From Escherichia phage HildyBeyeler, in sequence record MZ501074: DNA of 64,000 bases. One strand, 5' to 3'. A program made the position numbers and the translations under genes. Below, one piece after another: positions 36,246 to 45,864 of the stretch; the stretch's first letter is position 1, and each line of letters opens with the position of its first letter. The notes beneath the pieces were generated by a model, which saw only the letters and a program-made list of their open reading frames with translations, was not told the origin of the DNA and did not search any database.

Positions 36246-36468
36246 ATATTAATAAATTAGAGAACAGCGGGCCGATTACGCTGAGTGCAGAATCCAAACC
36301 GGAGTGCATTGAATAGAGTCGGTGGGTTAGTTGTAAAACTAGTACACAGTGGGCGGCAATCCCGGTTAGTGGCTAGAACGTGTAAAATGGGGCGTCTGAA
36401 ACCTCTCCCCTAAACTCTTCTCTAGTTTATAAATAGTGGGGTGTGGAAATCACTTATGTAGTAACACT

Positions 36469-36540
36469 GCCGATCTAGTATAAACGGTATTATCAAGCCG
36501 TAACTGGTGGAAGATGTAGGTTCGAATCCTACGATCGGTA
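36469..36540 (+). other. tRNA-like minihelix element (7-bp acceptor-like stem plus T-arm; no anticodon arm found)
   Basis: GCCGATC at 36469-75 pairs with GATCGGT at 36533-39; GTAGG-TTCGAAT-CCTAC T-arm at 36516-32; interior does not fold into D and anticodon arms. Confidence 0.3.
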
Positions 36541-37041
36541 AGAACTGGATAACTGGTGCTTTTAACGTAAAAGCTTCCGAGGTTAGTTGCGCACTGCCTA
36601 AACCACGCGGTAGTTGGTTCCAGACTAACCAACCAGTCTGCTGAATAGTTTTATTACGATTTAACTATGTCCAGGCTAAAGAAGAACTTTAGAAGGTATT
36701 CTAGGTGGTGAAGTTTTTCCTCCATATCGGAGTAGTTTTTCAAGCTACCAACAAAGTGGGAAATGCTGACATGAGAGATGTCACTAATGGTGCACAATAG
36801 CACAGGTAATTCGCGATAACTCCTGTTGAGTAGCAGCAAAAGGCGGGAAGTCATGACCCCAAGCCTAACCGAGTCCTCAATATACCGCAGGACATAACCA
36901 CTAAGTCACCCTGACTTAAACTGGAAAATAATAGACGTTACTGTATTTTGTCTTGAAATACTTAATGAGTGAGACTTATGACTCTCCCGGTATCGTCTGT
37001 ATTTTTAAGAGTTTTTACGAGAGTTCTTAAAAATACTTAAA

Positions 37042-40491: not shown

Positions 40492-40625
40492 AGTTATCTA
40501 ATTTGGAAAGTTCTTTTTAAGGTAGTTCTTACTTTAGCAGAGTAAACTTTCGGCAGATGGTGGCAGCCACTTTACCGATATTCCATAGTCAGTGCCGCAA
40601 ACACTGGCTACCTTAAAGAGAATTT

Positions 40626-40713
40626 GGGCGTTTATTCCGTAAGTGGTAGCGGAGGGGATTGTAAATCCCTGGTCATTGCGACTCGAGTGGTTCGACTCCA
40701 TTAACGCCCACCA
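40626..40713 (+). tRNA. tRNA-Tyr (anticodon GUA), long variable arm, CCA encoded
   Basis: Acceptor GGGCGTT/AACGCCC, anticodon arm GGGGA-UUGUAAA-TCCCT, extra arm, TTCGACT T-loop. Confidence 0.65.
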
Positions 40714-42897: not shown

Positions 42898-43012
42898 ACT
42901 TATTATGTAGGTTCCGATAGACCGGCGGGTCTATTCTGGCATTTAAGAGAGGTCTCGCAAACTTCTTTGTCAGCCGTGGGGTTGATAGCCCCCAGGTGGC
43001 CTACACAATAAG
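42898..43012 (+). repeat. 14-bp inverted repeat (13 of 14 pairs) enclosing about 87 nt of hairpin-rich sequence
   Basis: ACTTATTATGTAGG at 42898-911 pairs with CCTACACAATAAGT at 42999-43012; internal hairpins ATAGACC/GGTCTAT and GGGG/CCCC. Confidence 0.65.
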
Positions 43013-43868: not shown

Positions 43869-44204
43869 ATTTATATAAATTGATGCGAAAATAGCTGCCT
43901 AGATACCAGGTGTATGACGTCTACACTAGCAGAGCTACCGAAAAAGAGATCCCCAGGATAAACGTCGTAGCAAAATTAGTCTGGTATCCATCAATTTAGT
44001 TCACTAAGGTATTAGCTCGACCTAGGACTGGCTGCCAAAAAGCACGATCCCTACGATTCGGGAGAAGTTCTAGATTAGTCCACTAGATTCAGCGGCAACT
44101 GAATAGTGTATTGGGTTTGCGAGATGACGCAGTTCCTTCCGCTCGAAGCGAAGGTGCTGTAGTTACGCCGAGCTAATAGCCTTAGTAAACTAGAAGGAAT
44201 ATCT

Positions 44205-44764: not shown

Positions 44765-44995
44765 ATGAAACGAAAATTAAAAAAATCTTATATAATTAAG
44801 ATAAATAAGCTAAGAAGTAGGGCAAAAGGATGGCCACTTCGGATATTAATTGCGGATAACCATATTAGATACCATGCGGAACAACGTCATTATAAACAGT
44901 GGGAGTCATACTGCCGCTCAAAAGCAGGTCGTTTAGATGGATCTTATGAGTTTCTATTTGGTAAGAAGCCTACTAGAGTAGCTTTAGGTAATTAA
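44765..44995 (+). CDS. hypothetical basic protein (76 aa)
   Basis: ORF track. Confidence 0.4.
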   Translation: MKRKLKKSYIIKINKLRSRAKGWPLRILIADNHIRYHAEQRHYKQWESYCRSKAGRLDGSYEFLFGKKPTRVALGN

Positions 44996-45000
44996 TACTT

Positions 45001-45091
45001 GGAAGAGCAAATCGAATTGGCGACGAAAACCGCTTGGAAAGTGGCTGACCGGTAAAACGGCTTGAGAGTTCAAATCTCTCCTCTTCCGCCA
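45001..45091 (+). tRNA. tRNA-Ser (anticodon GGA), long variable arm, CCA encoded
   Basis: Acceptor GGAAGAG/CTCTTCC, anticodon loop UU-GGA-AA, 18-nt extra arm, T-arm GAGAG-TTCAAAT-CTCTC, G73. Confidence 0.65.
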
Positions 45092-45103
45092 AACAATTTA
45101 TAT

Positions 45104-45198
45104 GGTAGGTCAATCCAACGGCTGGCGCTGGACTCCGACTTGAAATCGGTTGATCGTAGTGATACGGTGTAAGGGTTCGATCCCCTTACCTACCTCCA
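45104..45198 (+). tRNA. tRNA-Ser (anticodon UGA), long variable arm, CCA encoded
   Basis: Acceptor GGTAGGT/ACCTACC, anticodon arm CCGA-CUUGAAA-TCGG, long extra arm, T-arm AAGGG-TTCGATC-CCCTT. Confidence 0.6.
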
Positions 45199-45450
45199 AA
45201 TCTTGAAGTATGCCGGAATCGGTAGACGGGGCTGCCTAAAAGGTTTATAGGGAACATCCACTCCCTGCAACATACCTCATAAAGCGGCTGAGATAAATGG
45301 TCTATCTCGTGAAGGTTCAAGTCCTTCTGCTTCTTGATACATCTATGGCTCAAAGTGTAACGGTGCTATTTGATGCTCTTGGTAAGACTTCCCCGACATG
45401 CGTTCGGGAGTAAGCTGCTAAGACTAGAGTAGAAGAGTTTCTGAGAGCCG

Positions 45451-45568
45451 CCACAATTGAAAATTCGTACTCGTCTTGAGCTGCGTGCAATAGGAGATAA
45501 CTTGATTAGTATTCTAGAACATGCTAATTGAGGATGGTTTCGCTAACCCTGCGAGTTTTCAATTGTGG
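45451..45568 (+). repeat. 13-bp perfect inverted repeat (CCACAATTGAAAA / TTTTCAATTGTGG) enclosing about 92 nt
   Basis: Arms at 45451-63 and 45556-68; the 3' arm runs into the acceptor stem of tRNA-His. Confidence 0.75.
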
Positions 45569-45641
45569 CTATATCATAATTGGTTAATGATCCTGATTGT
45601 GAATCAGGCCTATGTGGATTCGAATTCCACTAGCCACCCCA
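45565..45641 (+). tRNA. tRNA-His (anticodon GUG), CCA encoded
   Basis: Acceptor GTGGCTA/TAGCCAC, D-stem TCAT/ATGA, anticodon arm CCTGA-UUGUGAA-TCAGG, T-loop TTCGAAT. Confidence 0.75.
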
Positions 45642-45666
45642 AATTAACTTAAATAGGAAATAAAAT

Positions 45667-45864
45667 ATGGCTGATTTCTGCAAACAATGCTCCATTGATA
45701 TGTGGGGCAGAGATACTGGTGATCTTTCTGGTTTGATTACAGAAGCCGAAGTCAAAGAAGGTTATGGTGCAGTTGTGGTTTGCGAAGGATGCGGAGTTAT
45801 TCGAGTAGATCATGAAGGCAAACGTTTAGAAGAACCGGAAAATTTAGGAGAAACAAATGAGTAA
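45667..45864 (+). CDS. hypothetical Cys-containing protein (65 aa)
   Basis: ATAGGAAATAAA RBS. Confidence 0.45.
   Translation: MADFCKQCSIDMWGRDTGDLSGLITEAEVKEGYGAVVVCEGCGVIRVDHEGKRLEEPENLGETNE

What the first reader, a model, noticed from the sequence alone, without database searches (positions are those of the whole stretch)
45199..45564. A 365-nt non-coding interval with a 13-bp inverted repeat abutting tRNA-His
No ORF longer than about 20 codons is present. An orphan T-arm-like hairpin (GAAGG-TTCAAGT-CCTTC at 45311-27) is preceded by a 6-bp hairpin. A perfect 13-bp inverted repeat (45451-63 with 45556-68) encloses about 92 nt, and its 3' arm overlaps the first bases of tRNA-His, so formation of the long helix would compete with tRNA folding or processing.
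Basis: seen in the sequence. Interest (0 to 1): 0.55.

Follow-up and report, generated by a model that had tools for sequence, protein, structure and literature searches.

The report
Known T5 stable-RNA genes before tRNA-His
The "empty" stretch before tRNA-His in this T5-like phage holds three small stable-RNA genes already annotated in phage T5, and the inverted repeat is the 20-base-pair stem from which one of them (RNA III) appears to be cut out of the tRNA precursor.

Summary
The inverted repeat and the T-arm-like hairpin are real. The interval, however, is not an anonymous spacer. It matches three stable-RNA genes annotated in the T5 and BF23 GenBank records, all "unknown functions": tRNA-like RNA1 (45202-45346), RNA I (45347-45453, ends GCCA) and RNA III (45458-45563, 100% identical to T5). 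The repeat is RNA III's terminal stem. In the precursor it extends to 20 bp (45450-45469 with 45550-45569), taking in RNA I's GCCA end and G1-C5 of tRNA-His. Related phages carry five unrelated cassettes at this site (68, 111, 126, 138, 148 nt). All keep a 20-21 bp helix: 99.3% of cells paired, and 8 of 9 variable pairs changed on both sides. All 13 wobble cells are G.U and none is A.C, which argues for selection on the + strand RNA. The annotated ends of RNA III, RNA IV and RNA 2H lie inside such helices with 1-3 nt 3' overhangs. I infer excision by host RNase III; this is not shown. The feature is already known. The cassette polymorphism and the excision geometry are the useful additions.

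The parts
45202..45346 (+). RNA1, a tRNA-like stable RNA. It has an acceptor-like stem, a D arm, a long interrupted 'anticodon' arm ending in the invariant loop ACAUCCAC (45254-45261), a long variable arm (45290-45308) and a T arm (45311-45327). It has no CCA end.
   Evidence: 85.5% identical to BF23 rna1 and annotated the same way in T5 NC_005859. The MFE fold is cloverleaf-like. The alignment fold of 8 phages, including a Klebsiella phage, has 10 of 37 pairs with compensatory changes. No Rfam family matches at E<=10.
45311..45327 (+). The 6-bp hairpin 45290-45308 just before it is RNA1's variable arm.
45347..45453 (+). RNA I, a 107-nt stable RNA. It is rod-like, with a 5-bp acceptor-like terminal stem (GGCUC/GAGCC) and a 3' GCCA end.
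   Evidence: 91.6% identical to BF23 rnaI and annotated in T5 RefSeq. Folds. A second, 100-nt form with the same termini but a different interior exists in other phages.
45454..45457 (+). The 4-nt spacer CAAU between the annotated RNA I 3' end and the RNA III 5' end. It is part of the helix and invariant in all cassette types.
45458..45563 (+). RNA III, a 106-nt stable RNA. It has a 12-bp terminal stem with a 2-nt 3' overhang and three internal hairpins.
   Evidence: 100% identical to BF23 and T5 rnaIII. Fold -29.7 kcal/mol, z = -2.85. Mean pairwise difference among 26 haplotypes is 0.9%, against 5.8% for RNA I.
45450..45469 (+). 5' arm of the 20-bp precursor helix: the GCCA end of RNA I, the CAAU spacer and the first 12 nt of RNA III.
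45550..45569 (+). 3' arm of the 20-bp precursor helix: the last 14 nt of RNA III, U-1, and G1-C5 of tRNA-His.
45564..45641 (+). tRNA-His(GUG) with an encoded CCA. The T5 and BF23 records annotate it as 78 nt starting at U-1 (45564). ARAGORN and Rfam start it at G1 (45565).

Best explanation
The interval is the RNA1 - RNA I - RNA III stable-RNA gene block of a T5-like phage. It is transcribed as part of the polycistronic tRNA precursor. The inverted repeat is the terminal stem of RNA III. In the precursor it extends outward to a 20-bp helix that also pairs RNA I's 3' GCCA end and a 4-nt spacer with U-1 and G1-C5 of tRNA-His. I infer that host RNase III cuts both strands inside this helix, at 45457/45458 and 45563/45564. 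That cut would release RNA III with a 2-nt 3' overhang. It would leave RNA I with a 4-nt trailer to be trimmed back to CCA, and it would free the 5' strand of tRNA-His so the tRNA can fold. The helix is a fixed processing and docking platform. Its interior is exchangeable among phages (five unrelated cassettes), and the function of the released RNA is unknown. Shown: gene identity, the helix, its covariation, the cassette polymorphism, and the end geometry as annotated. Inferred: the nuclease, the order of events, and any role for RNA III itself.
For: Identity: blastn mapping onto the annotated BF23 and T5 features. Helix reality: 14 nt perfect and 20 bp in all, with 0 of 1000 shuffles reaching 13 nt. 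Conservation: every locus examined that has the RNA I to tRNA-His junction starts CAATTGA and ends TTCAATT around one of five unrelated interiors of 68, 111, 126, 138 or 148 nt. Each has a 20-21 bp helix. Covariation: 99.3% of cells are paired, and 8 of the 9 variable pairs change on both sides. Slid controls give 31-49% paired. Non-Watson-Crick cells are 13 G.U, 0 A.C and 1 U.U, which points to selection on the + strand RNA and not on DNA. One metagenomic variant turns a U.G into U-A. End geometry: the annotated ends of RNA III, RNA IV and RNA 2H all lie inside longer precursor helices, with 2-, 1- and 2(+1 bulge)-nt 3' overhangs. That is what a double-strand-specific staggered cut would leave. 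Energetics: the precursor MFE and centroid form the full helix, and forcing the tRNA-His acceptor stem costs 9.5 kcal/mol for all five cassettes. No + strand promoter lies inside the interval. Precedent: E. coli RNase III takes part in T4 tRNA maturation (PMC4810235, citing McClain 1979 and Gurevitz & Apirion 1983). The T4 tRNA cluster also carries stable species I and II RNAs (PMC2330249).
Against: No experimental end mapping or rnc dependence was available. The RNA ends are taken from GenBank annotations whose experimental basis I could not read. RNA IV shows a 1-nt overhang, not 2 nt. The 9.5 kcal/mol figure ignores tRNA tertiary structure and modifications. RNase III antideterminant rules were not checked. 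RNA III is as conserved as the tRNA (0.9% against 5.8% for RNA I). A pure processing spacer does not explain that, so RNA III probably has a function of its own that this account leaves open.
Confidence: 0.55

Rival explanations
1. The helix is only the protective terminal stem of RNA III. [quoted passage not shown] The 5' end comes from RNase E or G, or from exonucleases stopping at the stem. RNase III plays no part, and the outer 8 bp are a by-product of RNA I's CCA end and the tRNA-His GUGGC sequence.
For: RNA III's 3' end abuts tRNA-His. The outer GCCA and GUGGC are each constrained by their own RNAs. The spacer is A/U-rich. RNA I's outermost pair is lost in some phages whose RNA I ends ACCA.
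Against: RNA IV and RNA 2H do not abut a tRNA in the same way, yet their annotated ends also lie inside long helices with short 3' overhangs. The spacer CAAUUGA/UCAAUU is invariant, and helix length is held at 20-21 bp across unrelated cassettes.
Confidence: 0.25
2. The helix is a regulatory switch that sequesters the 5' strand of tRNA-His, or alternates with a weak terminator-like hairpin at 45539-45555 followed by UUUUCAAUU. It would tune how much mature tRNA-His is made.
For: The helix beats the acceptor stem by 9.5 kcal/mol in silico, and it would form co-transcriptionally before the tRNA 3' strand exists. A terminator-like site overlaps the 3' arm.
Against: Terminator-like hits are not above shuffles (2 found against 1.3 expected), and that hairpin is weak. 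No ligand or sensor element is evident. The same architecture occurs at loci with no overlap with a tRNA. This reading is compatible with the processing model and does not exclude it.
Confidence: 0.12
3. It is a DNA-level element. The arms would be terminal inverted repeats of a miniature mobile cassette or a site-specific recombination site, which would explain the cassette exchange.
For: Different interiors sit between identical outer arms containing the palindrome CAATTG at both junctions. The tRNA region is a recombination and deletion hotspot and carries HNH homing endonucleases (PMC12483538).
Against: All non-canonical pairs are G.U on the + strand and none is A.C. The inner arms differ between cassettes yet stay complementary. 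There are no other copies of any cassette in the window. There is no target-site duplication beyond the palindrome and no transposase. Homologous recombination in the conserved flanks, RNA I and tRNA-His, is enough to explain the exchange.
Confidence: 0.05
4. The interval encodes small proteins, as several phage annotations that place 'hypothetical protein' CDS over it assume.
For: Mechanical ORFs of 22-55 aa exist. CDS are annotated over the homologous stretch in SmurfNell, EscoHU1 and others. phrog_28521 matches the 43-aa ORF.
Against: That ORF runs through tRNA-His. There are no Pfam hits. The ORFs are not conserved between RNA I forms or between cassettes. Substitutions are compensatory in RNA stems. 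The T5, BF23 and DT571/2 records annotate stable RNAs here.
Confidence: 0.02

Closest known systems
Bacteriophage T5 / BF23 stable RNAs RNA1, RNA I and RNA III (GenBank NC_005859 features T5s03, T5s02, T5s01; NC_042564 rna1, rnaI, rnaIII)
   Same: Same order and position between tRNA-Ser and tRNA-His. RNA III is 100% identical, RNA I 91.6% and RNA1 85.5%.
   Different: Nothing essential. The window lacks the small ORF trn2.14 that sits between tRNA-Ser and RNA1 in T5 and BF23, and its RNA1 and RNA I are sequence variants.
T5 / BF23 stable RNAs RNA IV and RNA 2H (same records)
   Same: They are hairpin-type RNAs whose annotated ends lie inside precursor helices of 20 bp or more, with short 3' overhangs. 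Both are present in the window at 42905-43007 and 44010-44181.
   Different: Their sequences are unrelated, and their helices do not overlap a tRNA.
RNase III processing stems (the stems flanking 16S and 23S rRNA; the RNase III step in T4 tRNA-cluster maturation)
   Same: A long-range helix of about 20 bp brackets a stable RNA inside a polycistronic precursor, and the ends are staggered. An RNase III role in T4 tRNA maturation is cited in PMC4810235.
   Different: Cleavage by RNase III is not shown here. The excised product is a small RNA of unknown function, and the helix shares bases with two neighbouring RNAs.
T4 species I and II RNAs (stable small RNAs inside the T4 tRNA cluster)
   Same: They are phage stable RNAs of unknown function, co-transcribed and co-processed with tRNAs (PMC2330249). 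From my own knowledge, T4 species I RNA is an RNase III substrate in vitro (Paddock et al. 1976).
   Different: No T4-like phage matched the RNA I or RNA III part at blastn level. Homology is not supported, only analogy.

Membership tests
T5 RNA III (rnaIII) gene | Sequence identity to the annotated rnaIII of T5 and BF23 | tested here: met
   106/106 identical; features annotated
T5 RNA III (rnaIII) gene | Position directly between RNA I and tRNA-His | tested here: met
T5 RNA III (rnaIII) gene | Accumulates as a stable ~106-nt RNA in infected cells | not testable with these tools
   Rests on the depositor's annotation 'stable RNA with unknown functions'
RNase III processing site | Double-stranded helix of about two turns (~20 bp) | tested here: met
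   20-21 bp in all five cassette types
RNase III processing site | Staggered cuts on both strands leaving 2-nt 3' overhangs | tested here: inconclusive
   The annotated ends give a 2-nt overhang for RNA III, 1 nt for RNA IV and 2 nt plus a bulge for RNA 2H. The ends come from annotation and were not mapped here.
RNase III processing site | Cleavage depends on rnc and is reproduced with purified enzyme | not testable with these tools
   -
tRNA (for RNA1) | Acceptor stem, D arm and T arm with a UUCRANY-type loop | tested here: met
   (T loop UUCAAGU; acceptor stem covaries)
tRNA (for RNA1) | 5-bp anticodon stem with a 7-nt loop, a CCA or discriminator end, and a score above the Rfam tRNA threshold | tested here: not met
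   The 'anticodon' arm is about 60 nt with two internal loops. No CCA is present. No Rfam hit at E<=10.
Miniature inverted-repeat mobile element | Multiple dispersed copies, target-site duplication, arms conserved at the DNA level | tested here: not met
   Single copy in the window. Arm mismatches are all G.U on one strand.
Intrinsic terminator / attenuator | G+C-rich hairpin followed by a U tract, found above chance | tested here: not met
   2 weak hits against 1.3 expected. tRNA-His lies immediately downstream.
Any Rfam family | Covariance-model match | tested here: not met
   No match to 45199-45564 at E<=10. None to the alternative cassettes at E<=1.

The most novel reading that the evidence does not exclude
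The site between RNA I and tRNA-His, and at least one more site ahead of tRNA-Tyr, would be a docking platform. T5-like phages would exchange unrelated structured 'payload' RNAs there. Each payload is embedded in a fixed 20-bp RNase III-type helix that ensures excision and stability. The same helix would set the unusual 5' end of the phage tRNA-His, which has U at -1 where bacteria encode G. The payloads, of which RNA III is as conserved as a tRNA, would be host-interaction or anti-defence RNAs in a dispensable region shaped by an arms race.
Probability: 0.15. Interest if true: 0.7.

Novelty: already known. Interest (0 to 1): 0.35.

Why it matters
The functions of the T5 stable RNAs are still listed as unknown in the reference annotations. 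This analysis does not solve that, but it makes three things testable. First, RNA III, RNA IV and RNA 2H look like products of double-strand-specific excision, which predicts dependence on rnc. Second, the RNA III site is polymorphic for five unrelated cassettes that all keep one helix, which separates a processing platform from a payload. Third, RNA III is as conserved as tRNA-His, which argues that the payload matters. There is also a practical point. Many T5-like genome records annotate spurious 'hypothetical proteins' over these RNA genes, and one PHROG family appears to be built from such calls.

Tried and rejected
- Rfam at permissive thresholds on the window interval and on four loci with other cassettes: nothing but tRNAs.
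- blastn of RNA III against 5,426 E. coli genomes: no match, so there is no host homologue and no obvious long antisense target.
- Cassettes against the whole window and against each other: no other copies. The only internal similarity is a 34-nt 3' segment shared by the 126- and 148-nt cassettes.
- Promoter and terminator scan: no + strand promoter, and terminator-like hits at chance level.
- Protein reading of the mechanical ORFs: no Pfam hit. The one PHROG hit is to an ORF that runs through tRNA-His.
- Literature: eight full-text searches found no open paper describing T5 RNA I or RNA III, their processing, or cassette variation. The 1980s primary papers are not in the library.
- Mobile-element, retron-like and attenuator readings were considered and rejected for the reasons given under the rival explanations.
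- Covariation inside RNA III could not be tested. Only 7 of 111 sites vary among 26 haplotypes.
- I did not check RNase III antideterminant rules, because I could not recall them reliably.

Full report
**1. The observation**

The window is a T5-like phage. The best match over 44990-45700 is Salmonella phage Tennessee at 99.2%, and 712 phage records match, mostly Tequintavirus and Epseptimavirus.

- The inverted repeat is real. It is perfect over 14 nt (45450-63 / 45556-69), 18 nt with one G.U, and 20 bp with two G.U (45450-45469 / 45550-45569).
- In 1000 dinucleotide-preserving shuffles of 45199-45580, the longest perfect inverted repeat never reached 13 nt.
- The 3' arm covers U-1 and G1-C5 of tRNA-His, which ARAGORN places at 45565-45641.
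- The T-arm-like hairpin (45311-27) and the 6-bp hairpin before it are present.
- The claim that no ORF exceeds about 20 codons is wrong mechanically. ORFs of 38, 24 and 43 aa lie on the + strand and 55 and 46 aa on the - strand. None is credible.

**2. What the interval is**

The BF23 tRNA-region record (NC_042564), the T5 RefSeq (NC_005859) and DT571/2 all annotate stable RNA genes here. These are RNA1 ("tRNA-like stable RNA with unknown functions", 144 nt), RNA I (107 nt) and RNA III (106 nt), followed by a 78-nt tRNA-His that starts at U-1. Mapping them onto the window gives:

| Feature | Window coordinates | Identity to BF23 |
|---|---|---|
| RNA1 | 45202-45346 | 85.5% |
| RNA I | 45347-45453 | 91.6% |
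| Spacer CAAU | 45454-45457 | – |
| RNA III | 45458-45563 | 100% |
| tRNA-His | 45564-45641 | 100% |

The interval is therefore fully occupied by three known RNA genes. The left boundary is a tRNA-Ser-like gene that ARAGORN missed (45104-45198; Rfam tRNA-Sec model 38.3 bits, anticodon region reading UGA). Another tRNA-Ser lies at 45001-45091.

**3. Anatomy of the three RNAs**

In place of an anticodon stem-loop it has an interrupted arm of about 60 nt ending in the loop ACAUCCAC. An alignment of eight phages, including a Klebsiella T5-like phage, gives 10 of 37 pairs with compensatory changes. That terminal loop is invariant.
- **RNA I** is rod-like, with a 5-bp acceptor-like stem and a GCCA 3' end. 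Other phages carry a 100-nt form with the same termini (positions 1-20 and 86-107) and an unrelated interior.
- **RNA III** has a 12-bp terminal stem, a 2-nt 3' overhang and three internal hairpins.

No Rfam family matches any of them.

**4. The helix in relatives**

In every locus examined that has the RNA I to tRNA-His junction, the stretch between them begins CAATTGA and ends TTCAATT. That covers 34 loci and 11 more.

- The interior is one of five unrelated cassettes of 68, 111 (RNA III), 126, 138 or 148 nt.
- The spans of matches in a sampled list of the 509 matching phage records fit the same five lengths. The cassettes combine freely with either RNA I form.
- Each cassette keeps a 20-21 bp helix. 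Its outer 11 bp (GCCACAAUUGA / UCAAUUGUGGC) are invariant in the arms compared. Its inner 9-10 bp differ between cassettes but stay complementary.
- On seven distinct arm pairs, 99.3% of cells are paired, and 8 of the 9 variable pairs change on both sides. Sliding one arm by 1-3 columns drops pairing to 31-49%.
- All 13 wobble cells are G.U; there are no A.C cells and one U.U mismatch. This argues that selection acts on the + strand RNA and not on a DNA palindrome.
- One metagenomic variant converts a U.G to U-A.

**5. Mechanism**

- In the precursor RNA I-RNA III-tRNA-His, both the MFE and the centroid form the full 20-bp helix, stacked directly on RNA I's terminal stem. The tRNA-His acceptor stem is left unformed.
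- Forcing the acceptor stem costs 9.5 kcal/mol for all five cassettes. The nearest-neighbour model ignores tRNA tertiary structure.
- The annotated ends of RNA III fall inside the helix. The 5' end at 45458 pairs with 45561, and the 3' end at 45563 leaves a 2-nt 3' overhang. Eight more base pairs lie outside the mature RNA.
- Two other annotated T5/BF23 stable RNAs show the same pattern. RNA IV (window 42905-43007, helix 42892-43019) has a 1-nt overhang. RNA 2H (window 44010-44181) has a 2-bp stagger plus a bulge.
- Ends inside perfect helices with short 3' overhangs are what a double-strand-specific nuclease leaves. They are not what RNase P or RNase E would leave.

I therefore infer excision by host RNase III. 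The cut would release RNA III and leave RNA I with the trailer CAAU, to be trimmed back to CCA. It would also free the 5' strand of tRNA-His. RNase III involvement in T4 tRNA maturation is a precedent (PMC4810235). The nuclease and the order of events are inferred, not shown.

**6. More than a spacer?**

Among 26 distinct haplotypes carrying RNA I-107, RNA III and tRNA-His, the mean pairwise difference is 5.8% for RNA I, 0.9% for the RNA III cassette and 1.0% for tRNA-His. RNA III is thus as constrained as a tRNA, or it has been homogenised recently. That speaks for a sequence-dependent function of the released RNA, which remains unknown.

The whole tRNA region is dispensable in the laboratory and is a deletion hotspot (PMC12483538, citing Glukhov et al. 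2018), which fits an accessory role. RNA III has no match in E. coli genomes.

**7. Comparison and novelty**

The feature is the T5 RNA1 / RNA I / RNA III gene block, so it is already known and annotated, with function unknown. It works like an RNase III processing stem. It is analogous to the T4 species I and II RNAs (PMC2330249), but there is no evidence of homology.

I could not find in the searchable literature the five-cassette polymorphism on a covarying, fixed-length helix, the shared inside-the-helix end geometry of three stable RNAs, or a second polymorphic hairpin site ahead of tRNA-Tyr. The 1980s primary papers are not in the library, so I cannot exclude that parts of this were noted before.

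**8. Verdict**

It missed that the interval consists of known RNA genes and that the helix is RNA III's excision stem.
- Interest is moderate to low for the finding as stated. It would be higher if the payload reading holds.

Noticed in passing
window 45001-45091 and 45104-45198: Two tRNA-Ser-type genes that ARAGORN did not report. The first is 98.9% identical to BF23 tRNA-Ser(GGA) (Rfam tRNA 21.7 bits). The second scores 38.3 bits on the Rfam tRNA-Sec model, has an anticodon region reading UGA (Ser), and is only partly similar to T5 tRNA-Ser1.
   Followed up: partly
window 40508-40625 (before tRNA-Tyr at 40626): A hairpin element of about 118 nt with an 18-bp terminal stem lies between promoter P14a and tRNA-Tyr. 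BF23 and other phages carry at least two other unrelated hairpins at the same site. The tRNA-Tyr alleles downstream also differ strongly between phages.
   Followed up: partly
window 42905-43007 (RNA IV; helix 42892-43019) and 44010-44181 (RNA 2H): Two further T5/BF23 stable RNAs of unknown function are present in the window. Their annotated ends also lie inside precursor helices of 20 bp or more, with short 3' overhangs.
   Followed up: partly
window 45564; loci L037, L038, L054, L055, L053: The base at -1 of tRNA-His is T, not the G that bacteria encode, in T5-like, Novosibvirus, FelixO1-like, Seunavirus and Karamvirus phages, all with C73. Only an Erwinia jumbo phage with A73 has G. The T5 and BF23 records annotate a 78-nt tRNA-His that includes U-1 (G-1 rules in PMC9976931).
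   Followed up: partly
window 45521-45652 (+): A 43-aa mechanical ORF runs from RNA III through tRNA-His and matches phrog_28521 at E = 1e-36. This PHROG family therefore appears to be built from miscalled ORFs. Several phage records also place 'hypothetical protein' CDS over RNA1, RNA I and RNA III.
   Followed up: partly
window 45254-45261; L006 1245-1252: The terminal loop ACAUCCAC of RNA1's long arm is invariant from E. coli and Salmonella phages to Klebsiella T5-like phages, while the stem beneath it covaries. In the Klebsiella record the RNA1 homologue is unannotated or overlapped by CDS calls.
   Followed up: partly
window 45489-45500 and 45652-45663: A 12-nt direct repeat: AATAGGAGATAA inside RNA III and AATAGGAAATAA, which is the ribosome-binding region of the ORF starting at 45667. 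This may be chance.
   Followed up: no
window 36468-36541: ARAGORN calls a 'tRNA-Ser' with anticodon ACT inside the region homologous to BF23 RNAX, a 784-nt 'stable RNA with unknown functions' (window 36259-37041).
   Followed up: no
L037 671-709 (Proteus phage M4H10_20): In this more distant Demerecviridae phage, a simple 10-bp hairpin ends 1 nt before G1 of tRNA-His, with no RNA I- or RNA III-like genes. Small hairpins also precede tRNA-His in L054 and L055.
   Followed up: no
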